Shown here: positions 1 through 15,941 of the stretch, one piece after another
How the letters are laid out: every line of letters begins with the position of its first letter
Numbering within the stretch: the first letter of the stretch is position 1
Assembly: GCA_014729375.1 (NCBI GenBank)
Contig: WJKA01000260.1
Location: forward strand, 1 to 15,941
Length of the DNA: 15,941 bases
Origin: Chitinivibrionales bacterium
Lineage (GTDB): Bacteria > Fibrobacterota > Chitinivibrionia > Chitinivibrionales > WJKA01
Direction: 5' to 3'
The notes under the pieces: model-generated
What the model saw: only the letters and a program-made list of their open reading frames with translations
Told to the model about the DNA's origin: nothing
Database searches by the model: none
Made by a program: the position numbers and the translations under genes

Positions 1-1
1 T

Positions 2-262
2 GTATATGGTTCTCCGCTTGTTTTAAATGATCCATACGGGTTGGGTGTCCACCCTGGCGTTTGGGTACCGATATGCTTCTGGATCATAGAAGAGAGGATC
101 AGGATCTACCGATGTCTGACAGAAGGAAATAACGAAGGTGCGCCTGAGCAATCCCCATCGAGCTTTGAAGGATGTAAAGGCTGTGACTACCATTGCTGTG
201 GAGGACTCGTGTACTCAAATAGTAGTAGATGCTGTTCCGAGTATGAAGATAAACCAAGGTAG
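2..262 (+). CDS. 3' end (partial, continues upstream of window) of an Rhs/YD-repeat polymorphic toxin: core-terminal NPxxxDPxGL-like motif followed by a 58-aa Cys-rich C-terminal tip
   Basis: The frame is open from base 2 and translates VYGSPLVLNDPYGLG-VHPGVWVPICFWIIEERIRIYRCLTEGNNEGAPEQSPSSFEGCKGCDYHCCGGLVYSNSSRCCSEYEDKPR*. SPLVLNDPYGL matches the conserved Rhs core end (NPvnwvDPlGL), after which variable toxin tips begin. The ORF track starts this ORF at 41 only because it uses TTG as a start. A YD-repeat fragment 600 bp downstream supports an Rhs locus. Confidence 0.55.
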   Translation, partial: VYGSPLVLNDPYGLGVHPGVWVPICFWIIEERIRIYRCLTEGNNEGAPEQSPSSFEGCKGCDYHCCGGLVYSNSSRCCSEYEDKPR

Positions 263-281
263 CCAAGGGGAAACTCTTTCA

Positions 282-863
282 ATGCCTAAAGATATAGAAT
301 TCAAAGGACGTTTTTGGCCTGCTTTTCTGGCGACTTCGATTATCCTGACATTAGGATTTGGAACACGTGTATTGTTTGAATTCGGTATTCCGAATCAACA
401 GGAATTGGCAATTTTTCTCCTTATTGAAATCTCTTTAATTGCATTTGCTGCACTGATATCCCTTATCCTGAGGGCTTTCTATGCTGTGAGATTGCGAAAT
501 TCCAAGATACGCCTATTCGATATGATTGGTTTGTCGACTGCGGTGCCCTTAGAATCCATCTACAGCGGGACCTTCAGGCAATTTAGATTTCTTCGCATTG
601 GGGTTCTACGGAGTGGGTACTGGCCGTTGCCTTTACTTATCATGTCCGACGTGCTGAAATCGAACAAGTTCAAGACGAGCATTCAGAATCACCCATCAAT
701 AAGCGAAAATCTTTCAGCTTTCTTTCTCGAGAACCGGTCATTTCACAATATTGCAGAGGGGCGCCATTCTGTCCCCAGGGAAAAACGACTTGAATTTGCA
801 GGAAAGTTTTTGGTTCTTCTTCTTGTGTGGGTGATAGTTGCCTTGCGAACATTGGTTCTTTAA
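282..863 (+). CDS. Hypothetical membrane protein immediately downstream of the Rhs tip; candidate cognate immunity protein (start uncertain: 138/243/282)
   Basis: The long ORF 138..863 overlaps the Rhs tail by 125 nt. The internal ATG at 282 follows AAGGGG (265-270) and lies 20 nt after the Rhs stop (260-262). The product has about 3 hydrophobic helices (FWPAFLATSIILTLGF; LAIFLLIEISLIAFAALISLIL; FLVLLLVWVIVAL). Its position matches Rhs toxin-immunity organisation. No recognisable family. Confidence 0.3.
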   Translation: MPKDIEFKGRFWPAFLATSIILTLGFGTRVLFEFGIPNQQELAIFLLIEISLIAFAALISLILRAFYAVRLRNSKIRLFDMIGLSTAVPLESIYSGTFRQFRFLRIGVLRSGYWPLPLLIMSDVLKSNKFKTSIQNHPSISENLSAFFLENRSFHNIAEGRHSVPREKRLEFAGKFLVLLLVWVIVALRTLVL

Positions 864-1075
864 TAAGGGTTACCAATCATTGTCGGATTCCGAGTCAAAT
901 TTGTAGAGTCACCTTTGGACAGATGCCGGTTGCCTTTTTGCTTTCGGCCACCGATGGCTCTTCATGGCAATACGATTCGCTGGGAAACATGATTTACAAT
1001 GACGACGGCACCGATGAATGGGATTATGAGTATTCTCCGGAAAACCGGCTTATGAGCGATAATACTATTCAATAA
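827..1075 (+). pseudogene. Orphan/decayed YD-repeat (Rhs core) fragment
   Basis: The translation contains two textbook YD-repeat motifs: WQYDSLGNMIY (xYDxxGNhh) and WDYEYSPENRLMS (YxYxxxNRL). It stops after NTIQ with no DPxGL end or toxin tip, so it is too short to be a functional Rhs protein. Confidence 0.5.
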
Positions 1076-1236: not shown

Positions 1237-1414
1237 AATGGAACACGGATGCCACGGATGCGACGGATATTCACGGATTTTGCTTTTATGGTTAAGAAAA
1301 TAGAAGAAAAATGGGCCCATTCATAGAAATTGCAGCCTGATTTTCTTAACTCAGATATTTCCAGACTATTCAGATCCGTGTGAATCCGTCGCATCCGTGG
1401 CATCTGTGTTCCAT
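1237..1414. repeat. Large imperfect dyad-symmetry element: ~40-bp inverted arms (1237-1278 / 1374-1414) made of phased ACGGAT/ATCCGT units, nested inner IR (gttaagaaaat 1291-1301 / gattttcttaac 1339-1350) and central palindrome ATGGGCCCAT (1311-1320)
   Basis: Left arm: aatggaaCACGGATgcCACGGATgcgACGGATattCACGGAT. Right arm, its near reverse complement: ATCCGTgtgaATCCGTcgcATCCGTggcATCtGTgttccatt. The hexamer repeats every 9-10 bp (helical phasing). The core is AT-rich. The small ORFs on both strands here (e.g. the shared peptide SHPWHxCSIL) are artefacts of the symmetry. Confidence 0.7.
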
Positions 1415-1521
1415 TTTGGACAAGACTGGCTGCAGCTATATCTTTCATCATGTGAAAGACCCGGTTCCGTATGCTATTTTTCCCTCTGATGAAAGCAGTT
1501 CTCCATCGGATTCCCGATTTC

Positions 1522-2931
1522 TCAATCCGGCTTCTGTGTCTCTTCAAGAAATTCGATATACAAGCGGTAATTTACCACATGCCGCTTGACAATGAATGTC
1601 GCTCCTGCTCTCAGGAGGATTGTGAAGAACCCGTAACGCAGCACCCGTTTGAAATCCCATACCAGGGCATCAAGTACAATATTTGCAACAAGCATCAATC
1701 CTTCAATAGAAACGCGCCACAACGAGTAGAATGTGCGGTACGCATTCAGCACGTCTTCCTGAAGCATCCAGGGACTGATTGATTTTGGCTGAAAAACAAG
1801 AAACATGCCGTTAAAATATTCCCACCGTGTATGATAGAGACGGTGTTCACCGCATATTTTCTCGTAGAGACGGGTCCCGGGAAACGGCGTAAGGATCATA
1901 AACTGCACGGTGTCGATATGGTGACGGAGCGCAAAATCAACTGTCTCATGGATCGTCTCTCGCGTATCATTGTCTTCACCAAACATGAACATGCCATGAA
2001 TGCTTATCCCTTTTTTATGGATAATATCGATCGCATTTTCTATATCGCTTTTTGTCTGCGATTTGTGAAGCGCTTTAAGGGTGGCATCGTTGATCGATTC
2101 GAATCCGATAAAAAAGAACCGGCACCCGGTCTGTTCCATGCGCTCAATCATTTCCGGATCTCTGGAAATGTCCGACCGTACCTGCGCAGTCCAGGTGATA
2201 TCGAGATTCTCCTGTTCGATCAGATCACAGAGGCGTTGAATACGGTTCCTGTTTGCCGTGAAATTATCATCATAAAAGAAAATATCGCGGGTTGTAAAAT
2301 AGCGCAGCGCATGCCTGATCTCCCGGACAATCCGCTCAGCAGACTGCATGCGGAATTTTTTCCCAAAAATTTTTGTCACCGTGCAGAAGTTGCAGTCGAA
2401 CGGACAGCCGCGGGAGGTCATTACAGGAATAATAGCCATCGATTCGACACCTTCAAGAAGTGAATATTCCACCAGCGGAAGGTTTTCGATATTGTCGATC
2501 GGCCTGCCCCCTATGATTTTTTCTTCATGATCGCGCTCGATAATATCAACAATATTGCCCTCAGCTTCGCCCGTCACCACCGTATCGGCTACTTCAACGA
2601 AATCTTCAGGTACCAGCGATGCGTGAATTCCACCCACAATCACTCTGGATTCCGGGTACACTTTTTTTATCTGATATGCCAGAAGCTTGGCCCTGTTTGC
2701 ACTCACAGTCAATGCTGATAAACAGTAAACATCCGCCTTAATTGTAAAAGGATCAATTTTCCGTGAGAGAATGTTTTCATTGTATATTTTTACCGAATAT
2801 CCGGCATTATGAAGGATTGTTCCGAGATACAGGCAGCCTGTCAAGGGAAGACGCATGTAATTTTCAAAGACATTTGTCTCCGCGCCCGACGGTTCGATAA
2901 AGGCAATCCTTCTGGCATGCCCGGAATTCAT
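1522..2931 (-). CDS. B12-binding (class B) radical SAM protein
   Basis: An N-terminal cobalamin-binding domain (RIAFIEPSGAETNVF..., VIVGGIHASLVPEDF) is followed by a radical SAM core with CPFDCNFC (CxxxCxxC) and a glycine-rich SAM motif (FFIGFES). No SPASM-type extra Cys cluster is present. Start chosen at ATG 2931-2929 (MNSGHARRIAF), which overlaps the upstream gene's stop as ATGA. The track ORF extends 88 codons further, and I read those as non-coding. Confidence 0.85.
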   Translation of the reverse strand: MNSGHARRIAFIEPSGAETNVFENYMRLPLTGCLYLGTILHNAGYSVKIYNENILSRKIDPFTIKADVYCLSALTVSANRAKLLAYQIKKVYPESRVIVGGIHASLVPEDFVEVADTVVTGEAEGNIVDIIERDHEEKIIGGRPIDNIENLPLVEYSLLEGVESMAIIPVMTSRGCPFDCNFCTVTKIFGKKFRMQSAERIVREIRHALRYFTTRDIFFYDDNFTANRNRIQRLCDLIEQENLDITWTAQVRSDISRDPEMIERMEQTGCRFFFIGFESINDATLKALHKSQTKSDIENAIDIIHKKGISIHGMFMFGEDNDTRETIHETVDFALRHHIDTVQFMILTPFPGTRLYEKICGEHRLYHTRWEYFNGMFLVFQPKSISPWMLQEDVLNAYRTFYSLWRVSIEGLMLVANIVLDALVWDFKRVLRYGFFTILLRAGATFIVKRHVVNYRLYIEFLEETQKPD

Positions 2932-3413
2932 CGTGCCCGTTCCGCTATGAGAATGCTTGCGCCCGTAAAAATAAAAACAGTCCACCACAGTTGGGTGCTG
3001 AAAGAAAAGACAAGGATAAATACCGCGGAAATGGAAAGAAGCAGCAGTCCGGTCAAAAGAAAAATATAGCTTTTTCTGCAGAGAAAAAACGCCGCGAAAA
3101 AGGCCAATCCTAAAAAGCCGATAAAAAACGGCCATAAATCCGAAAGAACGGACCATGAGGAAAAATTCGCATACAAGGCCAATCCACTGAAACATACAAG
3201 GTAAATGCCGGGAATAAGATATCCCGGCTCTTGTCTTCCGCGGGCGCTGAATATACCAAGAAATCCAATACCAAGTACGGTTATTATCAAAGGCCAGAGT
3301 TTGTGAATGAATGAAAGCGGAGTAAATGCTTCAACGGCAAGAAGAATGCCAATTGCTATCAATAAAAATGCAAATCGGCCGTTACGACGGGCTTTTTCGT
3401 GGACCTGGTCCAT
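2928..3413 (-). CDS. Small polytopic membrane protein (about 5 TM helices), translationally coupled to the radical SAM gene
   Basis: Start ATG 3413-3411 is preceded by GAGGT with a 5-nt spacer. The protein MDQVHEKARRNGRFAFLLIAIGILLAVEAF... is almost entirely hydrophobic helices. The stop TGA 2930-2928 overlaps the rSAM ATG (ATGA). Confidence 0.65.
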   Translation of the reverse strand: MDQVHEKARRNGRFAFLLIAIGILLAVEAFTPLSFIHKLWPLIITVLGIGFLGIFSARGRQEPGYLIPGIYLVCFSGLALYANFSSWSVLSDLWPFFIGFLGLAFFAAFFLCRKSYIFLLTGLLLLSISAVFILVFSFSTQLWWTVFIFTGASILIAERAR

Positions 3414-4943: not shown

Positions 4944-5144
4944 ATGGATACAGTAGCTGAAATGCCGGTATCGTGCCCGGCTGCACCGCAAAACAATACT
5001 CTCGAAAATCGTTTTCTGATTATGCACATGGTACGCTTTGCACAGTCATTGCAGGGGACCCGCGCCAACCTGCCCGCGTATGGACCGGTTATGACAAAAA
5101 GCGACATGGGTGAAGAAAACAGAAACCACCAAAGGAGCTCATAA
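4944..5144 (+). CDS. Possible small protein (66 aa) translationally coupled between the SPFH and ABC ATPase genes
   Basis: The ATG at 4944 is preceded by GGAG (4933-4936). Its stop TAA (5142-5144) overlaps the ABC ATG (TAATG). No recognisable domain or TM. It could instead be a 200-nt intergenic spacer holding the strong AAAGGAG RBS of the ATPase. Confidence 0.3.
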   Translation: MDTVAEMPVSCPAAPQNNTLENRFLIMHMVRFAQSLQGTRANLPAYGPVMTKSDMGEENRNHQRSS

Positions 5145-5836
5145 TGGCTTTACTGGAATTACAGGAGATCACAAAGACGTTTCAGAAAGGCGAGCGTGAG
5201 GTCCATGCACTGCGCGGGATCGACCTGCTTGTAGACAAAGGAGAATTCCTCGCCATCGTCGGGCCGTCTGGAAGCGGCAAAACTACGCTGCTCAATATTG
5301 TCGGCTGCCTCGATACGCCGTCAGGAGGCAATATCGTATACAACGGCGGGGACCTCGGTGCGATGAATGAGCGGGAGCTTTCGGGATATCGCAAGAAAAA
5401 TATCGCGTTCATATTTCAGTCGTACAATCTTATTCCGGTGCTTACGGTACAGGAAAACGTGGAGCTTCCGCTGGTTATCGAAAAAACTCAGAGCAAAAAC
5501 GAGATGACGAGGCGGTCGCTGGAAATAATTGATACCGTCGGATTAAAGGGTATGGCCGATCGTCTGCCGCGCGAGCTTTCAGGCGGACAGGAGCAGCGCG
5601 TAGCAATTGCCCGCGCTCTTGTTAAAAATCCCCTGGTCGTTCTCGCCGATGAACCCACTGCGAACCTTGATTCGCATACGGCCGAAGACATCATGTCGGT
5701 TATGGAAAAAATGAACCGCGACCTTAATACAACGTTCATTTTCTCAACGCATGACAAGATGGTGCAGGAGCACGCAAAAAGAGTAATTATGCTTCATGAC
5801 GGGCAGGTGTCGTCGGATGAAAGGAAGCAGACATGA
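5144..5836 (+). CDS. ABC transporter ATP-binding protein, LolD/MacB/FtsE-type
   Basis: Walker A GPSGSGKTT; Q-loop; ABC signature LSGGQEQRVAIARAL; Walker B VVLADEPTANLD; H-loop STHD. Perfect SD AAAGGAG lies 6 nt upstream. Confidence 0.95.
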   Translation: MALLELQEITKTFQKGEREVHALRGIDLLVDKGEFLAIVGPSGSGKTTLLNIVGCLDTPSGGNIVYNGGDLGAMNERELSGYRKKNIAFIFQSYNLIPVLTVQENVELPLVIEKTQSKNEMTRRSLEIIDTVGLKGMADRLPRELSGGQEQRVAIARALVKNPLVVLADEPTANLDSHTAEDIMSVMEKMNRDLNTTFIFSTHDKMVQEHAKRVIMLHDGQVSSDERKQT

Positions 5837-7086
5837 ATATGATTGCGCGTATTGCTTTTCGTAATATTATGCGCCACAAACGCCGTACCATTACCTCCGC
5901 GATCACCATCGCCGTGGGAATATGGTTCTATACGTTTATGGATTCGGTGATGGCCGGTCTTGACCGGGGCGGTATCGATAATATGATAGAACTGACGACT
6001 TCCGCGGTGAAAGTGCATACCAGCGCTTACCAGGAGGACAAAGAAGCATTCCCGCTCGACCACGGTATCCGGAACATGAGAAAACTGCGCAAGCTTCTCT
6101 CCGGCAATCCCCGAATAGCCGGAATTGCCCCGCGAACACGATTTATCGGACAGCTCTCCAACTACACCGAGGAAATACCGGTTATCGGAACGGTTATCGA
6201 CCCGGACCTTGACAGCTCGGTCTTTTCACTGGTTTCATACCTGGAAGGCGATTATTTTTCAGCCGGAAGCAGTCGTGAAATAATACTCGGTAAGGATCTC
6301 GCCGAAGAAATGGGAGTGGATATCGGCGGCTATATCACGCTGTATGCACTCACGCGGTACGAGAGCCGCAATGCCGATGAGTTCAAAGTAGCGGGAGTCC
6401 TGAAAACAACCGATCCTGAGCTTAACCGGAGTTCGGTGATGATATCATATGCCGCGGCAAATGAGTTCCTTGACCTGGAAGGACTTGTTACCGAAGCGAA
6501 TGTCGGGCTTATGCGCCGCGTTAATCTCAAAGACATGAAAAATGACGCACGCAAAGTAAAGGAACGGATCGAAACGACGTTTCCCGGTCTTGAACCCTCA
6601 ACCTTTATGGAGCTTGCGGCGGGATTTCTGGAGCTTGCAAAGAGTAAACGCGCGTTCGGTGTTGTCTTCCTGCTGATCCTGCTGGTTATTGCCGCCGTGG
6701 GCATATTCAACTCGGTCCTTATGAGTGTGTATGAACGCATACGTGAAGTCGGCGTGCTTCGTGCCCATGGAATGAAATCCGGCGAGGTATCGGCCATGTT
6801 TGTACTGGAAGGTTTTATGACAGGAGTGCTTGGCTCGATTTTCGGCCTTGTGCTGGGTATTGCAACGAATCTCGTTCTGGTCACGTATGGCTATCCGATC
6901 GACAAGATAGCCGGCGATGTAGTTGTTGACGGTTTCCCGGTCTGGGGCACTATTTACGGAGAGTGGAACAGCGCAACCATGGTTTTTTTGTTTTTCTTCG
7001 GGATTGCCGTTGCTACCGTTGCCGGGATTATTCCCGCGCGCAAGGCGGGTAAAATGGAAGTAACCCATGCACTGAGGTTTGTTTGA
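5833..7086 (+). CDS. ABC transporter permease, FtsX/MacB/LolC-E type (TM1 + large periplasmic domain + 3 C-terminal TMs)
   Basis: The ATG overlaps the ATPase stop (ATGA). The N-terminus IAFRNIMRHKRRTITSAITIAVGI is typical of this family, followed by a roughly 230-aa extracytoplasmic domain and a C-terminal FtsX 3-helix bundle. Confidence 0.9.
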   Translation: MNMIARIAFRNIMRHKRRTITSAITIAVGIWFYTFMDSVMAGLDRGGIDNMIELTTSAVKVHTSAYQEDKEAFPLDHGIRNMRKLRKLLSGNPRIAGIAPRTRFIGQLSNYTEEIPVIGTVIDPDLDSSVFSLVSYLEGDYFSAGSSREIILGKDLAEEMGVDIGGYITLYALTRYESRNADEFKVAGVLKTTDPELNRSSVMISYAAANEFLDLEGLVTEANVGLMRRVNLKDMKNDARKVKERIETTFPGLEPSTFMELAAGFLELAKSKRAFGVVFLLILLVIAAVGIFNSVLMSVYERIREVGVLRAHGMKSGEVSAMFVLEGFMTGVLGSIFGLVLGIATNLVLVTYGYPIDKIAGDVVVDGFPVWGTIYGEWNSATMVFLFFFGIAVATVAGIIPARKAGKMEVTHALRFV

Positions 7087-7121
7087 ACCCTCGTGCAAAA
7101 ATACATTGAAAAGGAAAATAC

Positions 7122-8360
7122 ATGCTCTATTTGCTTAAACTTGCTTTTCGAAATCTCCTGCGCAACACCCGTCGATCATTGCTTGCAGTATTATCGGTAA
7201 TGCTTTCGATTATGTTCATAGTATTTATGCAGGGCATGCTGGGCGGATTTATGGGCTCACTGGTACGGAATTACACCCGCAATGAGACAGGGCATATCCG
7301 GATAGCAACCCGGGATTTTGTCGACAAGGTCCGCTTTTACCCGGTTACCGAAAATATCGAAAACCCGGACTCGCTGATTGCCGGGATCAAGGATGATCCC
7401 GACATTGCGAAGCATATCGATATTATAACCAAACGGATCTATTTCGGTGTGCTTCTGAACAACAGGGGAAACAATAAAAACGCGGTTGCGCTTGCCGGAG
7501 ATCCTGCAACCGAAAAAGACCTGCTGCTGCTTCATAAGTCAATCCTTCCGGGCGGGCGCTATATCAGAAACGAACGCGAAACTATTATCGGTGCCGGTCT
7601 GGCTGAAGCGCTTGATTTCAAGGTAGGAGATACGGTTAAAGTGATGGCCCAGGGAGGCGATTACGCACTTCACTTGCGGAAGTTTGCAGTAGTGGGCATA
7701 TTCGAGTCGGGGCTGAAAGACATGGACGAACGGATATTTCAGATACCGCTCTCCGACGCCGAAAAACTGCTTCGCATGAAAGACGAAACACAGCAGATAA
7801 TACTCATGCTCGACAATTACCATCGCGCAGAACAGGTCGCATCCGCAATTGAGCAAAAGATCGGGACACCAGAGCTTTCGATTCAGCCGTGGCGGGAAGC
7901 CGGAATATACGGCAATTATGTAACGTTGGCCGCAAAAATGTACAACATTATCTACTTCGTAATTGCACTCCTTGGAGCGTTTATCATCGGTAACATAATG
8001 ATGATGGTGGTGCTGGAGCGGCGCCGTGAGATCGGCGTGCTCAAATCAATGGGGCTTTCGCGGATAAAAATCCTGTTTCTTTTCATATCGGAAGGTATTA
8101 TTCTGGGGCTTGCCGGGAGTCTTGCAGGCGTAGCCGGAGGAAGTCTTGTGTCGTGGTATTTTCATATTTTCGGCCTTGATTTCAGTAAAGCGCTGAGCTC
8201 GGTGAATATGCCGATGGACAGTGTGGTCTATACCACAATTGACACGGGGGGATTGGCAGTTGCCGTTGTACTGGGAACCCTCGTATCCGGCCTGGTATCG
8301 ATTATTCCCTCCTGGCAGGCCGCGCGTATGAATGCTGTGAATGCAATAAAAAGCGTATGA
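7122..8360 (+). CDS. Second FtsX/LolC-E-type ABC permease
   Basis: N-terminus LAFRNLLRNTRRSLLAVLSVMLSI with the same architecture. RBS AAGGAAAA precedes the start. It is paralogous to the upstream permease, giving a hetero-permease arrangement as in LolCDE. Confidence 0.9.
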   Translation: MLYLLKLAFRNLLRNTRRSLLAVLSVMLSIMFIVFMQGMLGGFMGSLVRNYTRNETGHIRIATRDFVDKVRFYPVTENIENPDSLIAGIKDDPDIAKHIDIITKRIYFGVLLNNRGNNKNAVALAGDPATEKDLLLLHKSILPGGRYIRNERETIIGAGLAEALDFKVGDTVKVMAQGGDYALHLRKFAVVGIFESGLKDMDERIFQIPLSDAEKLLRMKDETQQIILMLDNYHRAEQVASAIEQKIGTPELSIQPWREAGIYGNYVTLAAKMYNIIYFVIALLGAFIIGNIMMMVVLERRREIGVLKSMGLSRIKILFLFISEGIILGLAGSLAGVAGGSLVSWYFHIFGLDFSKALSSVNMPMDSVVYTTIDTGGLAVAVVLGTLVSGLVSIIPSWQAARMNAVNAIKSV

Positions 8361-8394
8361 TATAGAATTGAAAAACTGTCCTGAGGAGGTTACT

Positions 8395-9129
8395 ATGAAA
8401 ATCACAATTTTGCTTGCTGTCTTGTGCACTGCCGCGACCCTGTATGCTCTTACCGGAGAGGAAATTCTCGAAAAAATGGATAAAAACCGCGATCACAAGA
8501 CAATTATCTATGAAGGCACGATGGAAATCCATATCGATGACGAAGTCCGCACGAAAAAGATGTCGGCGCGGGCAATGAGCAATGATAAAGACAGGGCTGT
8601 GGTGGAATTTATCAATCCTGAAGATGACGGCACCAAATATCTCATGATCGGCGATAATCTCTGGATTTACTTTCCCGGTGAAGAAGATGTTGTCAAGATA
8701 TCGGGCCACATGCTCAAGGAGGGTATGATGGGCTCTGATGTCTCGTATGAAGATGCGCTGGAATCGGATGAGCTGTCGGACACCTATGAAATCCGGCTTA
8801 TCGGTGAAGAAAAAATCGGTGAGTATGACTGCTATGTCATCGAGCTGAATGCAAGAGTCAGGAATGCCCCCTATTTCAAGAGAAAAATGTGGGTGGCCAA
8901 ATCCAATTTTGTGCAAATCAAAGAAGAAATGTATGCAAAAAGCGGCAAACTGCTTAAAACGGCAAATACCCTGGAGATACAAACAATAGGTAACCGGGAT
9001 TTTGCAGTCAAAGTGGAAATGGTGAACAAGCTGCGCAAGAACAGCAGGACTGTTTTTACCATGAAAGATATTACATTTGATAAACCGCTTGATGAATCCG
9101 TTTTCTCGATGCGGTATCTGCGGAGGTGA
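8395..9129 (+). CDS. Secreted LolA-like (outer-membrane lipoprotein-sorting protein family) periplasmic protein
   Basis: Start chosen at ATG 8395 (MKITILLAVLCTAATLYA, an SPI signal peptide) because GAGGAGG lies 5 nt upstream; the track ORF starts 9 codons earlier. The size (~245 aa) and a beta-rich pattern with conserved-looking D/W motifs resemble the LolA-like DUF often found next to FtsX permeases. The assignment is by context and composition, not a hard motif. Confidence 0.6.
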   Translation: MKITILLAVLCTAATLYALTGEEILEKMDKNRDHKTIIYEGTMEIHIDDEVRTKKMSARAMSNDKDRAVVEFINPEDDGTKYLMIGDNLWIYFPGEEDVVKISGHMLKEGMMGSDVSYEDALESDELSDTYEIRLIGEEKIGEYDCYVIELNARVRNAPYFKRKMWVAKSNFVQIKEEMYAKSGKLLKTANTLEIQTIGNRDFAVKVEMVNKLRKNSRTVFTMKDITFDKPLDESVFSMRYLRR

Positions 9130-9202
9130 TGCCGGATACCGGCTACTGGATACACCGGATGGTGAATGGTGGAGCAGGGCAATACACTGCTTTTTGTGTT
9201 GG

Positions 9203-9223
9203 GCATGGCCTTCCAGGCCATGC
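9203..9223 (+). other. Perfect 9-bp stem / 3-nt loop hairpin (GCATGGCCT-tcc-AGGCCATGC) in the LolA-like/OMP intergenic region
   Basis: Seen directly. It is preceded by CTTTTTG and not followed by a clean T-tract. It may be a partial terminator or attenuator, or a processing site. Confidence 0.4.
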
Positions 9224-9313
9224 GTAATAATACAGGATTTTGAATGGAGCTTATAATTTTTTTCCCATAATATTGAGCATTGACCGATGATCACTGAACG
9301 CTGAGTTTCTGAA

Positions 9314-10432
9314 ATGATTTCACTGCGAAACACCCGCACCTTCCTGTTTGCTCTTACCATTATCTGCACAGCGTTTGCTGCAGACAATTCCGGCGGCCTG
9401 CGGCTCCACGGATCGATGTACTCGGACCTGGGTGTTGTGCAGGAATACGATGCGGATGATACGGATACATTCAAGTTTACCGGATTGACAAACCTCTCGC
9501 TCAATTTCAGGAACACCAACCGCAGATACGGAAAAATCGAAGGACTTCTCGATCTGTTCATGCCGTATGGCGTTGCCGCCGACCGGATATTTGAAACAAT
9601 CCCGGATGATGCATTTCCCGACAGCAGTGTCGATGAATTTGTCACGCTGTTCTCCGTACGCGGCTCGCCGCTGCTTCTTGATGTACGCAATTTGTACTTT
9701 TCATTTTATCTGCCGTTTGTCGACATTACAGTCGGTCGCCGGATCATCAATTTCGGCAAAGGGTCCATTTTTTCCCCTGTTGACATTTTTTCATCAGTTG
9801 ACCTTACCGACCTGAATTACCGCCGCTCAGGGAGCGATATTATCAGCCTTCGGTTCCCCTTCGGCTTGCTCTCCGGGTGCGATATTGTTGCGGGCCTTCC
9901 TCTTTTCGACGACTCCTATGCTGCGGCCGCTAAATTGTTTACAACTGTCAAAGGCTTCGATTTCAGCCTGGTCGGGCTCTATAAGAATGCCGGTACCTCG
10001 CCCGCGAAAAATACGCAAACAACTGCAGGGATCGCGTTTAAGGGAGATATCGAGATCGGCGCGTACGGTGAAGCAGTTGCTCATTATGATCATGACAGGG
10101 AAATGCTTTTTTTCGAAGCCATGGCCGGCGCGGATTACTCACTAAGGGAGCGCTGGATATTCACGGCGGAATACATGTACAAGGACCCCGGCTATGCCAG
10201 CGCGCTTCGGGGACAGCATAATGCATTTGGCTCGGTGCAATATGCTTTTAATGATATCATGAATATTTCCACCGGACTGATCGGCACGATTGATGACCGG
10301 CAGGCTGTCGGGATTGTCCGGTATTACTATAATATCCTGCAAAATGTCGACTGGACCGTTTATATTCAGGGCGTCGGCTCCAACGAAATTGCGCTTGTTA
10401 ACTATATGACACGCGTTGAAATAAAATTCTGA
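9314..10432 (+). CDS. Predicted outer-membrane beta-barrel protein (signal peptide, C-terminal ...VEIKF beta-signal)
   Basis: SPI signal MISLRNTRTFLFALTIICTAFA|ADN. The sequence shows alternating hydrophobic/polar beta-strand periodicity throughout and is rich in Y/G/D/N. It ends in the aromatic-terminated pattern V-E-I-K-F typical of BAM substrates. No family recognised. Confidence 0.6.
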   Translation: MISLRNTRTFLFALTIICTAFAADNSGGLRLHGSMYSDLGVVQEYDADDTDTFKFTGLTNLSLNFRNTNRRYGKIEGLLDLFMPYGVAADRIFETIPDDAFPDSSVDEFVTLFSVRGSPLLLDVRNLYFSFYLPFVDITVGRRIINFGKGSIFSPVDIFSSVDLTDLNYRRSGSDIISLRFPFGLLSGCDIVAGLPLFDDSYAAAAKLFTTVKGFDFSLVGLYKNAGTSPAKNTQTTAGIAFKGDIEIGAYGEAVAHYDHDREMLFFEAMAGADYSLRERWIFTAEYMYKDPGYASALRGQHNAFGSVQYAFNDIMNISTGLIGTIDDRQAVGIVRYYYNILQNVDWTVYIQGVGSNEIALVNYMTRVEIKF

Positions 10433-10900: not shown

Positions 10901-13492
10901 ATGAAAAGCCTTATTGCTGTCCTTTTTTCTCTTTCAACAGCCTGGGCGGTGACATTGTATGTATCTCCAGACGGTGATGATTCAAATGACGGCTCCGAAT
11001 CGGGTCCGTTCAAAACATTGCATCATGCCCGGGACGCCATACGGAGCGCAGGAAGCGACGAAAAGATTGTCATTCTGAATGAAGGCAATTATTTCCTCGA
11101 TGAACCGCTCCGGTTTGATGAAAATGACAACGGCACCGAGCAGAACCCGGTAGTATGGAAGGGTGAAGACAACAAAGATGTTGCTGTTTACGGCGGCAGA
11201 AGGATTACCGGCTGGGAAGTGTATCAACAGGTTGAAGGCAAAATGCCGGGAGTACCTCATTACCCGCTCTCCGGCACAATATACCGGGCGCAACTGCCTG
11301 ATCAAAACTGGAAATTCTGGAACCTTGCCGAAAACGGGAAACGCTCGCCGCAGGCCCGGCACCCCAATCACCGGGACCCCCGTCCAAACGGGCATGGATG
11401 GGGCACGCTTCGTCATATCAATGCCGACGGCACACCGGCAAGCAGGACCAGCAATAATTTCAGATATGCCGAGGGATGGCTTCCGGACAACTGGGAATAC
11501 AGCAACGCCAGGATGATTTTCGGTCCCGGGTGGTTTACCGATGTGCGGCCGATAAGCAATGTCGACTATTCCGCCCGTATTATTACCATTTCACCGAGCA
11601 CCAATCCGACCGCTTCGTACTGGGTTGAAGGTGCAAAAGAGTTTATCGACCAGCCCGGCGAGTGGGCAATTTCCGATGACGGCTATGTGTATTACTGGCC
11701 GAAAAATACCCCGATCGATCAACAGGTCATTGTCGGTGGCACAATGACACGCGCAATCGAGTTTATCGGAAGCTCCCCTTCAAATCCTGTCAAGTATATT
11801 ACGCTCGAAAACCTGCTGATATCAACATCTAACTCGACTGATGAAGTCTATTCGAGCAAGACATCGCCGCAGTCACCCGCGGATGAAGACCACGAAAACA
11901 ATTGTGAAATCGATGAAATGCGTCTGGGCCTCGTCCATTTTGAGAATGCCGAATATTGCACAGTACGGTTCTGCAAAATATGGAATGCCGGCACCCAGGG
12001 CGTATGCATGAACTATCACGCACAGCATAATACGGTATATGGATGCTGGATAGAGGGAATCGGGCACCACGGCGTTTTCCTGACCAGCTACTGCTGCTCT
12101 TCGGGCCCGTGGGACAATATCAACAGCTTCAATACTGTCAAGAATAACTATATTCACGATTACGGCAAGCTGATGAGCGGCGTGGCCGGTGTAGGCCTCT
12201 ACCAGAGCGGTGATAATGAAATAACGTACAACGAAATCCGCCGCTGCGCGCGCTATGGCTTGTCGATGAAAGGCCAGCGGTCCGGCGTTTTCGGTGTTAC
12301 ATTGACGGAAGATATGCTTCTCTGCGACCGGAATGTCATGCAGTATAACGATATTTCCCATGTGCTCCATTCGACTGTTGACGGCGGCGCGTACGAGAGC
12401 TGGCATCCCAGCCAGGGAAACATTCTGAAAAACAATGTATTCCACGACCTGTATCACATAACGTGTGCAGGAAGGGGCGGTGACACCAACGAGGACCCTG
12501 CCGGATTCTGCGGTCTGTCGCAGCGACACTGCATGTACCCCGATGCCGGCCCGAATCCTGAAATCGATGACAATGCTGCGTATAACTGTGTCGACATGGT
12601 CAACTGGTATGTCGAGGGGTTCGGCCAGCCGCTCCCGTTCACCAGGTCGGCTGCAAAGCGGATCGCTTCAGGCAGGGGTTTTGACATTGAGGAAATCGGT
12701 CTGCTCTCCGATTTCCCCTGGCACACGCCCGGACAGGACAAAAACGAGTATGAATGGCCGGATGAAATCATCTGGGACCCCGACCTGATCGGCTATTTCG
12801 AAAGCCTGTTCATGAACGGCGACGGGCTTGATGCCGAATATTATTCATCAAGCTCTCTGTCCGGCACGCCGGTCGAAACAACAGTCGAACCCTATCCCGG
12901 TTTCGACTGGACATCGAATAAAAATGTCAGGTTGACAGGATGGGTTGTGCCGCTTTTTTCCGAAGAATACCGGTTCTGCGCAGACGCCACCGGTACGGTG
13001 CGAATCTGGATAGATGATCAGCAGGTGCTGACCGAATCCGCGCCGACCTATCAGAAAGTTCATTTCGGCGATTTTATCCAGCTCCAGGGAGGACAACCCT
13101 GCGCGATAAAAATCGAATCAATCGGTGGAAGCGAACTCAGTATCGACTGGTACAGCCGGACCCAGCCGATCCAGGTTATTCCCCAGTCGCAACTGTTCTC
13201 CGGCAATACTGCCCCCGACCCGGTCGGCGCCGTGAATAGCACGAGGAGCGTTACTCCGCCTTCACTGGGCGTTACTGTCGCAGGAAACCTTCTGTCAATT
13301 GCCGTGCCGGATAATACCGGCCCTGTCAGCATTACGCTGATCAGGCCAAACGGCTCGGCAGCACATACGACACACGGCCATGGTAATGATATGTACCGGA
13401 TCGATGCTTCACCATATGCATCCGGTGTTTACATGATGGCTGTCAGGGCGGGTAATGCAACCATGTTCCGCAAAGTGGTGCTGGGAAAATAG
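10901..13492 (+). CDS. Secreted multidomain protein: right-handed parallel beta-helix (pectate-lyase-like) domain + PA14 domain + T9SS C-terminal sorting domain
   Basis: Signal peptide MKSLIAVLFSLSTAWA. YVSPDGDDSNDGSESGPFKTLHHA is the typical N-terminal cap of beta-helix enzymes. Repeated N.xxHD/G beta-helix rungs follow (NNYIHDYG, CWIEGIGHHGVFL). PA14: DGLDAEYYSSSSL...WVVPLFSEEYRF...IWIDDQ. C-terminus ASGVYMMAVRAGNATMFRKVVLGK matches the T9SS CTD. RBS AAGGGGGG. Confidence 0.85.
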   Translation: MKSLIAVLFSLSTAWAVTLYVSPDGDDSNDGSESGPFKTLHHARDAIRSAGSDEKIVILNEGNYFLDEPLRFDENDNGTEQNPVVWKGEDNKDVAVYGGRRITGWEVYQQVEGKMPGVPHYPLSGTIYRAQLPDQNWKFWNLAENGKRSPQARHPNHRDPRPNGHGWGTLRHINADGTPASRTSNNFRYAEGWLPDNWEYSNARMIFGPGWFTDVRPISNVDYSARIITISPSTNPTASYWVEGAKEFIDQPGEWAISDDGYVYYWPKNTPIDQQVIVGGTMTRAIEFIGSSPSNPVKYITLENLLISTSNSTDEVYSSKTSPQSPADEDHENNCEIDEMRLGLVHFENAEYCTVRFCKIWNAGTQGVCMNYHAQHNTVYGCWIEGIGHHGVFLTSYCCSSGPWDNINSFNTVKNNYIHDYGKLMSGVAGVGLYQSGDNEITYNEIRRCARYGLSMKGQRSGVFGVTLTEDMLLCDRNVMQYNDISHVLHSTVDGGAYESWHPSQGNILKNNVFHDLYHITCAGRGGDTNEDPAGFCGLSQRHCMYPDAGPNPEIDDNAAYNCVDMVNWYVEGFGQPLPFTRSAAKRIASGRGFDIEEIGLLSDFPWHTPGQDKNEYEWPDEIIWDPDLIGYFESLFMNGDGLDAEYYSSSSLSGTPVETTVEPYPGFDWTSNKNVRLTGWVVPLFSEEYRFCADATGTVRIWIDDQQVLTESAPTYQKVHFGDFIQLQGGQPCAIKIESIGGSELSIDWYSRTQPIQVIPQSQLFSGNTAPDPVGAVNSTRSVTPPSLGVTVAGNLLSIAVPDNTGPVSITLIRPNGSAAHTTHGHGNDMYRIDASPYASGVYMMAVRAGNATMFRKVVLGK

Positions 13493-13939: not shown

Positions 13940-15130
13940 CTACTTGACAGCAGATTCCTTGCGCAGGCGGGCCTTTTTCGAATCAGCCTTCTCTTCTTTT
14001 ATCAAATACTGGCCGCTTGCAGGATTTGTTGTAGTTGCTTTGCGCAAAACTTTGTCGTTGAGTCGCTGTCCTTTCATGTTATATATCGAGTTCTGAACAT
14101 CTTTCTGAAGGTTCAGCGGCGCTTTGGCCTGAAATCGCTGTTCCACGCCGGTCTCGCAGTACGCAGTATCAGGTCCGTATACATAAATAACATTGCATGA
14201 GCCCTCATAATCCTGCGATTTCCTGCCGTCATTGGTCTCAGCCCAGACAATATATTCAACAACTTCCTGTTCCTCACAAGTCACAAATGTTGTCTCATAT
14301 ACCGCCTCCATTGTACGGATATCCTCGCCGTCCGGCTGGCCGTTCTCCTCGAAAAAATCGTAGACATACCAGATTGTATCGGCAGGCTCAACACAGGGTT
14401 TCGGCGGATATTCAAACGAAAGAGTCAACGGTGTCGGCGGATAGTCGTCTCCGGGAGCACAATCAGGATTGATCCACTCTATCTCAAATGCACAAAAATC
14501 TTTTCTTTCGCCGAATGCACTGGCCGGAACAACAACCGAGTCGGTTGAACCGGGAGCTTTCCACCAGAGCTCCGCAATGGAGGTGCCTGTTTTTTCATAA
14601 AAATAAAACTTCAGGTCATGCTTTCCTGCAGTGAGGTTTACCGTTGCCTGATATTCCGATGCCGAAGGAACACCGTCAGTACCCAGCCCCGGATCCAGCG
14701 CTTCATCAATTGTGGTATACATAAAAACGGCTGAGGGATCATCACTGATTATTTCCCCGTCAATTTCAATAAACATGGCTTCGTCGGCCTTTATCGTAAA
14801 CACATAGTCGCCATCCGAGGGGACCAGAAATGAATCAGCGATACCTACGACAATATAGTTGTCGAATTTCCATTGCATCGGATTTGGCATCTTGTTGGCA
14901 AACACATTCGGCCCCGATTCACTGATTGAATCAATCCACTCGGTATCTGAAACAACCGATTCGGAAAGAATCGAATCATACGCCGCAGTTCTGTACCACA
15001 CTGAATCGCTTCCTTTGCCAAAAGCAGTTTCCAACTCATCGGTCCCCGCGACATAGAACTTGATGGAACCGTATGACGAAAACACCATTAAGGCCAGAAA
15101 AGGAATTATAAAACGCACCATCCGTTGCAT
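13940..15130 (-). CDS. Secreted PA14-domain protein with Cys-rich middle region and probable T9SS C-terminal sorting domain
   Basis: Start chosen at ATG 15130-15128 (MQRMVRFIIPFLALMVFSSYG signal peptide) with GAAGGAGG 6 nt upstream; the track begins at a TTG two codons earlier. PA14 motifs: DGDYVFTIKADEAMFIEIDGEII...GKHDLKFYFYEKTG...ELWWKAPG. C-terminus SIYNMKGQRL...ASGQYLIKEEK...KK resembles a T9SS CTD. Confidence 0.8.
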   Translation of the reverse strand: MQRMVRFIIPFLALMVFSSYGSIKFYVAGTDELETAFGKGSDSVWYRTAAYDSILSESVVSDTEWIDSISESGPNVFANKMPNPMQWKFDNYIVVGIADSFLVPSDGDYVFTIKADEAMFIEIDGEIISDDPSAVFMYTTIDEALDPGLGTDGVPSASEYQATVNLTAGKHDLKFYFYEKTGTSIAELWWKAPGSTDSVVVPASAFGERKDFCAFEIEWINPDCAPGDDYPPTPLTLSFEYPPKPCVEPADTIWYVYDFFEENGQPDGEDIRTMEAVYETTFVTCEEQEVVEYIVWAETNDGRKSQDYEGSCNVIYVYGPDTAYCETGVEQRFQAKAPLNLQKDVQNSIYNMKGQRLNDKVLRKATTTNPASGQYLIKEEKADSKKARLRKESAVK

Positions 15131-15654: not shown

Positions 15655-15941
15655 TCAATAATTCTTGAAATTAAACGTGAGTCCCAGTGCCATTGTCTGT
15701 TTCAACTGGACATCATTTTTATAGGTGTCCGGCTGTTTGTCCCTGTCATAGACAAGCTGTAAATACAGATTAAGCATTATAAGCCGGGTAAAATTGATAT
15801 TCAGGCTGTTTTCCCAGTTAATATCCGGATACCGCCAATCTGCTGCCGTGGTATTATCGTCCGGATTGGCCTCCGCCAGTCCCTCGTAGTCATCCTGATC
15901 GGAATACAATAAAGCTTCATACACCCTCAGGAGGCTTGAAA
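15655..15941 (-). CDS. 3' end (partial; start lies beyond window) of a probable outer-membrane protein
   Basis: The C-terminus ...MALGLTFNFKNY* ends in an alternating aromatic/hydrophobic pattern with a terminal Y, as in beta-barrel OMPs. The ORF runs to the window edge and is rich in D/N/Y/W. Family unknown. Confidence 0.4.
   Translation of the reverse strand, partial: SSLLRVYEALLYSDQDDYEGLAEANPDDNTTAADWRYPDINWENSLNINFTRLIMLNLYLQLVYDRDKQPDTYKNDVQLKQTMALGLTFNFKNY

What the first reader, a model, noticed from the sequence alone, without database searches (positions are those of the whole stretch)
1..1075. Window opens inside an Rhs polymorphic-toxin locus: core end, tiny Cys-rich tip, membrane ORF, then an orphan YD fragment
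The first 13 codons read SPLVLNDPYGL, the hallmark C-terminal end of the Rhs core, after which the variable toxin starts. Only 58 aa follow before the stop. A membrane ORF sits immediately downstream, and 600 bp further on two perfect YD-repeat motifs (YDSLGNMI, YEYSPENRL) appear in an ORF that ends prematurely. That layout (main rhs tip, immunity gene, displaced orphan fragment) is the classic signature of Rhs toxin/immunity diversification.
Basis: partly seen in the sequence, partly recalled or inferred. Interest (0 to 1): 0.6.

Follow-up and report, generated by a model that had tools for sequence, protein, structure and literature searches.

The report
Rhs toxin tip at contig edge
The contig starts in the last 14 codons of an Rhs-type polymorphic toxin gene, followed by a short cysteine-rich tip with no relatives, a three-helix membrane protein that is probably its immunity partner, and a stray scrap of YD repeat; this is an ordinary kind of locus with an unusual, uncharacterised payload.

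Summary
Frame 2 is open from the window edge and reads VYGSPLVLNDPYGL, a full match to the Rhs core-end motif PxxxxDPxGL at nt 14-43. After it come 72 aa (not 58) with 8 Cys, then a stop at 260-262. An ORF with three hydrophobic helices follows, most likely from ATG 282. A YD-like segment of about 40 aa lies at 932-1060, and it resembles the repeats of E. coli RhsA far more than shuffled or control peptides do.

The window is an entire 15,941-bp contig of a Chitinivibrionales MAG, so the upstream YD core cannot be checked. We also cannot tell whether this is a main rhs gene or an orphan module.

The tip has no homologue among 1.84 billion representative proteins. The word-index search found no homologue of the membrane ORF or the YD scrap in 5.8 billion clusters. 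The YD scrap has no core-end motif, no tip and no immunity gene, so it is a vestige and not a classic orphan module.

Relatives conserve the neighbouring radical-SAM gene pair but not this region.

Best reading: an Rhs tip and immunity cassette with non-host codon usage. The payload is possibly membrane-directed, but that is inferred only.

Verdict: new member of a known kind, modest interest.

The parts
2..43 (+). Last 14 codons of an Rhs/YD-protein core (VYGSPLVLNDPYGL). The PxxxxDPxGL core-end and autocleavage motif is at nt 14-43. The ORF runs off the contig edge.
   Evidence: sequence; the only match in six frames, 0.019 expected by chance. E. coli RhsA ends its core with ...NFYQYPLNPVTNTDPLGL. 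PMC3150448 and PMC8636562 define the motif.
44..262 (+). Variable C-terminal tip of 72 aa (8.1 kDa, pI 5.2) with 8 Cys. It has a hydrophobic N-terminal stretch (GVWVPICFWII), a polar linker and a C-x2-C-x3-CC-x10-CC cluster. The TAG stop is at 260-262.
   Evidence: No homologue. No Pfam, NCBIfam, PADLOC or PHROG family. AF2 pLDDT 39.9.
265..271 (+). Shine-Dalgarno-like AAGGGGA, 10 nt before ATG 282.
   Evidence: Other genes on the contig carry similar purine-rich boxes, for example AAGGGGGA 8 nt before the SPFH gene's ATG.
282..863 (+). Candidate immunity gene: a 193-aa basic (pI 10.5) membrane protein with three predicted TM helices and a K/R-rich loop of about 100 aa. GenBank annotates it from GTG 183 as a 226-aa hypothetical protein (GF350_06585, MBD3320743.1).
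   Evidence: Only a self hit in 5.8 billion clusters. No family. No plasmid match.
932..1075 (+). Vestigial YD-repeat remnant of about two repeats (WQYDSLGNMI ... WDYEYSPENRL) ending in a stop. It has no core-end motif, tip or immunity gene. GenBank annotates 938-1075 as a 45-aa hypothetical protein (GF350_06590, MBD3320744.1).
   Evidence: RHS_repeat E 0.014, sub-threshold. (similarity to the E. coli RhsA repeats, 0 of 300 shuffles). (codon usage closer to the host than the tip or membrane ORF)..

Best explanation
The contig begins inside the 3' end of an rhs-family (YD-repeat cocoon) polymorphic-toxin gene.

Inferred mechanism, by analogy with solved Rhs effectors:
- The missing upstream part would encode a YD-repeat shell that encloses the C-terminal tip.
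- The aspartyl-protease plug, whose second DPxGL motif is the one seen here, would cut after the Leu at nt 41-43.
- That cut would release an 8-kDa, 72-residue, 8-cysteine peptide, which is delivered into a competitor cell.

The ORF that follows 19 nt after the stop is the cognate immunity protein, a 193-aa protein with three TM helices. Because the immunity candidate is an integral membrane protein and the tip starts with a hydrophobic segment, the most likely site of action is the target cell's membrane or envelope and not a cytoplasmic enzyme substrate.

The tip and immunity pair looks like a horizontally acquired cassette. The two-repeat YD scrap downstream is debris from an earlier rhs copy or rearrangement at this hotspot.

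Shown: the motif, the ORF layout, the TM segments, the YD similarity, the lack of homologues, the atypical codon usage, and the non-syntenic position.
Inferred: the upstream core, the cleavage, toxicity, immunity, the membrane target and the secretion route.
For: - Motif PLVLNDPYGL sits at nt 14-43 in an ORF open to the contig edge. Chance expectation is 0.019 per window.
- The motif is the published boundary between Rhs core and tip (PMC3150448). The cut follows the second DPxGL, and its Asp is catalytic (PMC8636562). In Tse5 the cut is at Leu1168-Ile1169 (PMC10684867).
- A YD-repeat remnant lies 670 nt downstream on the same strand.
- The layout mirrors E. coli K-12 rhsA, yibA after a 20-nt gap, then the pseudogene yibJ. 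Here the gap is 19 nt and a Shine-Dalgarno-like box precedes ATG 282.
- The tip has no relatives, and the word-index search found none for the membrane ORF. This fits hypervariable toxin and immunity pairs.
- Synonymous codon usage of the tip (-0.13) and the membrane ORF (-0.13) differs from host genes (+0.13 +/- 0.08). The YD remnant scores +0.05. GC of the membrane ORF is 0.43, against 0.44-0.53 for host genes.
- Relatives at 55-63% identity keep the adjacent LiaF-like and radical-SAM gene pair but carry different genes at this position. The region is therefore variable.
- The contig breaks 43 nt before the end of the conserved motif. An assembler would break there if the core 3' end occurs in more than one copy or strain variant (inference).
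- A membrane-acting Rhs tip has a precedent in the pore-forming Tse5-CT (PMC10684867).
Against: - Only 14 residues of core are visible. The first DPxGL motif, about 17 residues upstream, and all YD repeats of this gene lie beyond the contig.
- No profile (Pfam or NCBIfam) scores the core end.
- No related core end was found in metagenome or viral contigs.
- The tip is half the usual size of about 15-16 kDa. It is acidic, and its Cys-rich half scores poorly on host codon usage, while frame 3 is open from nt 120 and scores better there. GenBank's annotation starts the membrane ORF at 183, overlapping the tip by 80 nt, and the partial tip ORF is absent from the protein collection. The 3' half of the tip may therefore not be translated as read.
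- Toxicity, immunity and a membrane target are untested. Both structure models are low confidence.
Confidence: 0.72

Rival explanations
1. The locus is decayed or frameshifted. The original tip ran from frame 2 into frame 3 somewhere in nt 120-260, so the 'membrane ORF' is the rest of a tip of roughly 260 aa with several hydrophobic helices (a pore former). Alternatively the tip is a truncated pseudogene. Under either version the Cys-rich tail is an out-of-frame artefact and no separate immunity gene is present.
For: - Frame 3 is open for 54 codons upstream of ATG 282. My rough estimate of the chance of that, not computed with a tool, is about 0.035.
- Host-trained codon scores favour frame 3 over frame 2 from about nt 121.
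- GenBank calls the frame-3 gene from GTG 183.
- The partial frame-2 ORF is absent from the protein collection.
- A 72-aa tip is unusually short compared with 130 aa in RhsA and 149 aa in Tse5.
Against: - The codon score is confounded by amino-acid composition, because Cys codons are rare. The synonymous-only score does not separate the frames: -0.21 for frame 2 and -0.28 for frame 3.
- A Shine-Dalgarno-like box and an ATG lie 19 nt after the stop, the same spacing as rhsA-yibA.
- The membrane protein reads as a complete unit with an N-terminal TM helix.
- I expect frameshift errors to be uncommon in short-read assemblies. This is my own assumption, and the assembly method was not checked.
Confidence: 0.15
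2. The ORF at nt 2-262 belongs to an orphan (silent) rhs module that keeps only a short stretch of core, and not to a full-length expressed rhs gene. The cassette would then be a stored toxin and immunity pair, or only the immunity gene would be in use.
For: - Nothing upstream can be seen.
- Orphan modules by definition keep the core's 3' extremity with the 10-aa motif, a tip and an immunity gene, and that is exactly what is visible here.
- The locus already contains other rhs debris.
Against: None directly. This is a sub-case of the main explanation, so its 0.3 overlaps the 0.72 given there and the two are not meant to add up. A contig break inside the conserved core is expected in either case.
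Confidence: 0.3
3. The motifs are coincidental and this is not an Rhs locus at all. The region would be ORFan filler between a contig end and the radical-SAM gene.
For: - No curated profile reaches its threshold on any of the three ORFs.
- No homologues exist for any of them.
Against: - The chance of the 10-aa motif is 0.019 per window and of the paired YD pattern 0.0085 per window. Both occur on one strand within 1 kb.
- The YD segment matches many E. coli RhsA repeats (0 of 300 shuffles) and is unique among all six frames.
Confidence: 0.03

Closest known systems
E. coli K-12 rhsA - yibA - yibJ locus (classic Rhs element with downstream tip and immunity remnants)
   Same: The core ends in PxxxxDPxGL (RhsA: PVTNTDPLGL). 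A unique tip follows, then a small gene after about 20 nt (20 nt in K-12, 19 nt here), then rhs-derived debris on the same strand.
   Different: The RhsA tip is 130 aa and YibA is a soluble HEAT-repeat protein. Here the tip is 72 aa and Cys-rich, and the downstream protein has three TM helices. The debris here is a bare two-repeat YD scrap, not a core-end plus tip fragment. There is no sequence homology beyond generic repeat similarity.
Pseudomonas aeruginosa Tse5 (RhsP1) and Tsi5, an Rhs-encapsulated pore-forming toxin (PMC10684867)
   Same: An Rhs cocoon cleaved after the Leu of the core-end motif releases a tip that inserts into the membrane. This is the best functional analogy if the tip here acts on membranes, as its hydrophobic start and membrane-embedded immunity candidate suggest.
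   Different: Tse5-CT is 149 aa (16 kDa), and the paper passages read do not describe it as cysteine-rich (no sequence was compared). No similarity to any solved chain was detected for the tip. Membrane activity here is only inferred.
Orphan rhs-CT/rhsI modules (Poole et al. 2011, PMC3150448; definition in bioRxiv 10.1101/2025.05.08.652813)
   Same: The visible part of the first gene (core 3' end with motif, tip, candidate immunity gene) has exactly the content of an orphan module, so that status cannot be excluded.
Immunity proteins of pore-forming colicins and of the CdiA-CT(EC93) ionophore (from my own knowledge, not tested here)
   Same: These are small integral inner-membrane proteins with several TM helices. 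They are encoded next to a membrane-acting toxin and neutralise it within the membrane.
   Different: No sequence or family match was found. The resemblance is architectural only.

Membership tests
Rhs / YD-repeat polymorphic toxin (Rhs core, TIGR03696-type C-terminal plug) | PxxxxDPxGL motif marking the boundary between the conserved core and the variable tip | tested here: met
   PLVLNDPYGL at nt 14-43 is the only match in six frames, with 0.019 expected. It was matched as a pattern only. Pfam and NCBIfam profiles give no score on 14 residues.
Rhs / YD-repeat polymorphic toxin (Rhs core, TIGR03696-type C-terminal plug) | Two DPxGL aspartyl-protease motifs about 17 residues apart | not testable with these tools
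   Only 8 residues precede the Asp of the visible motif. The first motif would lie beyond the contig edge.
Rhs / YD-repeat polymorphic toxin (Rhs core, TIGR03696-type C-terminal plug) | Long YD-repeat shell (hundreds to more than 1000 aa) upstream, in frame with the motif | not testable with these tools
   The window is the whole 15,941-bp contig. No overlapping contig was found in the genome or metagenome collections, and the protein is not in the contig index.
Rhs / YD-repeat polymorphic toxin (Rhs core, TIGR03696-type C-terminal plug) | Variable, lineage-restricted C-terminal tip after the motif | tested here: met
   The 72-aa tip has no homologue in 1.84 billion representatives. The two listed hits are tandem-repeat artefacts.
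Rhs / YD-repeat polymorphic toxin (Rhs core, TIGR03696-type C-terminal plug) | Small cognate immunity gene immediately downstream on the same strand | tested here: inconclusive
   A 193-aa ORF starts 19 nt after the stop and has a Shine-Dalgarno-like box. Immunity function is untested, and the start codon is ambiguous among 138, 183, 243 and 282.
Orphan rhs-CT/rhsI module (as applied to the fragment at 932-1075) | Retains the 3' extremity of the core, including the 10-aa motif | tested here: not met
   No P....DP.G[LW] occurs anywhere else in the window. The ORF stops at 1073-1075, right after the second YD-like repeat.
Orphan rhs-CT/rhsI module (as applied to the fragment at 932-1075) | Alternative toxin tip plus its own immunity gene downstream | tested here: not met
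   Nt 1076-1521 hold no convincing ORF, only a spacer with 32% GC and a long hairpin.
YD / RHS repeat (Pfam PF05593; NCBIfam TIGR01643) for the fragment at 932-1075 | Scores above the curated profile threshold | tested here: not met
   PF05593 gives 16.2 bits against a cut-off of 22, E 0.014. NCBIfam gives no hit.
YD / RHS repeat (Pfam PF05593; NCBIfam TIGR01643) for the fragment at 932-1075 | Repeat-like similarity to the repeats of a bona fide Rhs protein, with a period of about 20 aa | tested here: met
   15 of about 60 RhsA windows score 30 or more, versus 1.76 +/- 1.83 in shuffles (0 of 300) and a control maximum of 5. The YD-to-YxY spacing is 20 residues.
CBM14 (peritrophin-A) chitin-binding domain, for the Cys-rich half of the tip | Significant sequence or profile match with the six-Cys spacing | tested here: not met
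   The only trace is a phmmer hit to the chitotriosidase CBM (6so0_A) at E 0.23. Pfam finds no CBM_14 hit at E up to 10. From my own recollection of the domain, not tested, the Cys spacing also differs.

The most novel reading that the evidence does not exclude
The 72-residue tip with eight cysteines is a functional payload of a new type: a small disulfide-rich or metal-binding peptide delivered by an Rhs cocoon. It would act at the target's membrane or envelope and be countered by a dedicated three-TM immunity protein. On this reading, Rhs shells can carry bacteriocin-sized or knottin-sized peptides and not only enzymes of about 15 kDa or pore formers.
Probability: 0.15. Interest if true: 0.55.

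Novelty: new member of a known kind. Interest (0 to 1): 0.3.

Why it matters
Rhs tips are a large, open-ended reservoir of antibacterial activities, and most characterised ones are enzymes of about 15 kDa. If this tip is functional, an 8-kDa cysteine-rich tip paired with a membrane-embedded immunity protein would extend the cargo range of Rhs cocoons towards peptide-sized, possibly envelope-acting toxins. It would do so in a poorly studied lineage (Chitinivibrionales, Fibrobacterota).

As it stands, this is one truncated locus in one MAG with no relatives. Its practical value is as an annotation correction: two 'hypothetical proteins' and an apparently uncalled partial ORF are probably an Rhs tip, its immunity candidate and an rhs remnant. 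It also illustrates how polymorphic-toxin loci break assemblies at the boundary between core and tip.

Tried and rejected
- Upstream context. Exact 52-nt searches of genome and metagenome contigs found nothing. Look-ups of window proteins in the contig index found nothing. The window proved to be the whole contig.
- Synteny by proxy. Sixteen loci with the neighbouring radical-SAM gene were fetched. None carries a YD motif, and the one core-end pattern match (L015) lies upstream of the radical-SAM match, in an ORF with no YD motif. Each of the four long loci examined carries different genes at this position.
- Lineage-specific core end. A degenerate DNA pattern for PLVLNDPYGL found nothing in metagenomes. 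The pattern PxxxNDPYGLG in viral contigs gave one hit, a chance match (NDPYGFG in a non-Rhs protein).
- Homology of the tip. The word-index search found nothing. The exhaustive phmmer search gave two hits, P0002 and P0003, which are tandem-repeat translations whose scores are sums of 9-10 weak stretches, so I rejected them. PDB sequences gave only non-significant hits, including a CBM14-like one at E 0.23, also rejected. Plasmid tblastn found nothing.
- Homology of the membrane ORF and the YD fragment. Only self hits were found. Plasmid tblastn found nothing for the membrane ORF. PADLOC and PHROGs gave nothing significant.
- Structure. Single-sequence AF2 models had pLDDT 39.9 for the tip and 56.2 for the membrane ORF. 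These are too poor for fold searches, so none were run.
- Frame discrimination in the 138-262 overlap. The codon log-likelihood favours frame 3 but is confounded by Cys content. The synonymous-only score cannot separate the frames.
- Locating the YD scrap within an Rhs protein. The best RhsA alignment falls at residues 1157-1179, just before the C-terminal plug, but other repeats score almost as well. This stays undecided.
- Promoter and terminator scan of nt 1-1700. Nothing above shuffle expectation.

Full report
**What is in the sequence.**
- Frame 2 is open from the first base and reads VYGSPLVLNDPYGL, then 72 further residues and a TAG stop at 260-262.
- PLVLNDPYGL (nt 14-43) fits PxxxxDPxGL at every fixed position. 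This is the peptide that separates the conserved Rhs core from the variable tip (PMC3150448; PMC8636562).
- It is the only such match in the six-frame translation of the window. First-order Markov simulations of the window give 0.019 per window.
It weighs 8.1 kDa, has pI 5.2 and carries eight cysteines at tip positions 11, 24, 44, 47, 51, 52, 63 and 64.
- The tip has a hydrophobic start (GVWVPICFWII), a polar linker and a C-x2-C-x3-CC-x10-CC cluster.
- For comparison, E. coli K-12 RhsA ends its core with ...NFYQYPLNPVTNTDPLGL, followed by a 130-aa tip.

**The downstream ORF.**
- Frame 3 is open from nt 120 to 863. Candidate starts are GTG 138, GTG 183 (the GenBank choice, 226 aa, GF350_06585 / MBD3320743.1), ATG 243 and ATG 282.
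- ATG 282 lies 19 nt after the tip's stop and 10 nt after an AAGGGGA box, which resembles the ribosome-binding sites of other genes on the contig. The rhsA-yibA gap in E. coli is 20 nt. I therefore favour a 193-aa product.
- The product is basic (pI 10.5) and has three strongly hydrophobic segments: two near the N-terminus and one at the extreme C-terminus, around a K/R-rich region of about 100 aa. A low-confidence AF2 model is all-helical.

**The YD fragment.**
- In frame 2, nt 932-1075 read ...SATDGSSWQYDSLGNMIYNDDGTDEWDYEYSPENRLMSDNTIQ*. The two YD-like motifs are 20 residues apart, which I recall to be about the usual YD-repeat period.
- Both motifs depart from the consensus, so 'perfect' overstates them. 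The first has G-N-M for G-R-L and the second has YS for YD.
- Pfam RHS_repeat scores 16.2 bits (E 0.014), below its cut-off of 22. NCBIfam reports nothing.
- I ran an independent test against the repeat core of E. coli RhsA. Fifteen of about 60 fifty-residue windows gave a Smith-Waterman score of 30 or more. Shuffles gave 1.76 +/- 1.83 (0 of 300 reached 15), and 63 control peptides from other genes of the contig reached at most 5.
- A scan of all six frames of nt 1-1600 shows this is the only YD-like stretch.
- It has no core-end motif and no tip. No ORF follows it, only a spacer with 32% GC and a long hairpin.
- Published usage requires an orphan module to keep the core's 3' extremity with the 10-aa motif, an alternative tip and an immunity gene. 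This fragment is therefore a vestigial remnant and not an orphan module.

**Context.**
- The self hits show that the window is a complete 15,941-bp contig of a Chitinivibrionales MAG. The decisive check, an upstream YD core, therefore cannot be made. Exact and degenerate DNA searches and contig look-ups found no extension or close relative.
- The rest of the contig is ordinary. It carries a B12-binding radical-SAM enzyme, a LiaF-like membrane protein, an SPFH protein, a MacB/FtsX-type ABC transporter with a LolA-like protein, and two PA14 proteins.
- Relatives at 55-63% identity keep the LiaF-like and radical-SAM gene pair, but each of the four long loci examined carries different genes 3' of it, and none carries Rhs genes. 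Nt 1-1521 is thus a variable region.
- Synonymous codon usage of the tip and the membrane ORF (both about -0.13) is unlike host genes (+0.13 +/- 0.08). The YD remnant is closer to the host (+0.05). GC is slightly lower as well.
- This matches the known pattern of foreign tip and immunity cassettes attached to native cores (PMC8636562).
- The contig starts 43 nt before the end of the motif. An assembler would break there if the core 3' end is present in several copies or variants (inference).

**Homology.**
- The tip has no relative in the word-index search or in an exhaustive phmmer scan of 1.84 billion representatives. The two listed proteins are tandem-repeat artefacts.
- The membrane ORF and the YD fragment hit only themselves.
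- Pfam, NCBIfam, PADLOC, PHROGs, PDB sequences and plasmids add nothing significant.
- A CBM14-like resemblance of the Cys cluster (E 0.23) is not supported by Pfam, and I rejected it.
- AF2 models are too poor for fold searches.

**Mechanism.**
- By analogy with solved Rhs effectors, the missing core would form a YD cocoon enclosing the tip. The C-terminal aspartyl-protease plug would cut after the Leu of DPYGL. In Tse5 the cut is at Leu1168-Ile1169, and in Rhs1 the Asp of the second motif is catalytic.
- The released peptide would then act in a competitor cell.
- The immunity candidate is membrane-embedded and the tip begins with a hydrophobic segment. This points to the membrane or envelope as the site of action, as for the pore-forming Rhs tip Tse5-CT. 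The tip, however, is half the usual size, acidic and cysteine-rich, so this step is inference only.

**Rivals.**
- A frame 2 to frame 3 shift or decay, so that the Cys-rich tail is not real and the membrane ORF is part of the tip. Frame 3 is open from nt 120 and scores better on host codon usage. That score is confounded by Cys content, and the synonymous-only score does not discriminate. I give this about 0.15.
- The visible gene is itself an orphan module and not the main rhs gene. This cannot be distinguished here.
- Chance motifs, about 0.03.

**Verdict.** This is a genuine Rhs-type tip and immunity locus, cut by the contig edge, with an ORFan payload and an rhs remnant. It is a new member of a known kind and of modest interest. 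The interest would rise only if the small Cys-rich tip proves to be a functional toxin of a new class.

Noticed in passing
window 1237-1415 (arms 1237-1278 and 1374-1415): A 42-nt inverted repeat, 90% complementary, with a 95-nt spacer. Each arm carries an ACGGAT-type submotif four times. It folds at -91.9 kcal/mol (z = -10.8). It lies between the YD remnant and the convergent radical-SAM gene. It matches no Rfam family (best WsnRNA46, 23 bits against a gathering score of 65), I saw no obvious target-site duplication by eye, and it is absent from the other fetched loci. It may be a MITE-like element, an unusually long bidirectional terminator, or a rearrangement scar.
   Followed up: partly
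window 1522-3413 (- strand); loci L001-L009: A LiaF-TM-like small membrane protein and a B12-binding radical-SAM enzyme lie side by side. The radical-SAM gene has relatives at 53-63% identity in Chitinivibrionales, Fibrobacterota, Lentisphaerota and Elusimicrobiales MAGs. The adjacent membrane gene was confirmed in the four long loci examined (L003, L005, L007, L008). The function of the pair is unknown.
   Followed up: partly
window 5144-10432: An operon-like run of a MacB/FtsX-type ABC transporter (an ATPase plus two permeases with MacB periplasmic domains), a LolA_like protein and a 372-aa protein with no Pfam match (9314-10432).
   Followed up: no
window 10901-13492 (+) and 13940-15130 (-): Two PA14-domain proteins. 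The first is 863 aa with a right-handed beta-helix. They may be secreted proteins acting on polysaccharide.
   Followed up: no
window approx. 15660-15941 (- strand): A partial ORF runs off the right contig end and finishes with ...GLTFNFKNY*. The terminal aromatic residue resembles the C-terminus of outer-membrane beta-barrel proteins.
   Followed up: no
proteins P0002 and P0003: The only 'significant' hits of the exhaustive phmmer search are translations of tandem DNA repeats. Their scores are the sum of 9-10 weak matches to tip residues 7-32. Short queries can be misled by such summed repeat scores.
   Followed up: yes
window 2-262: The 5'-partial Rhs-tip ORF is absent from the protein collection, whereas the two downstream ORFs are present as MBD3320743.1 and MBD3320744.1. 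The public annotation therefore probably does not call the tip and so misses the Rhs nature of the locus.
   Followed up: partly
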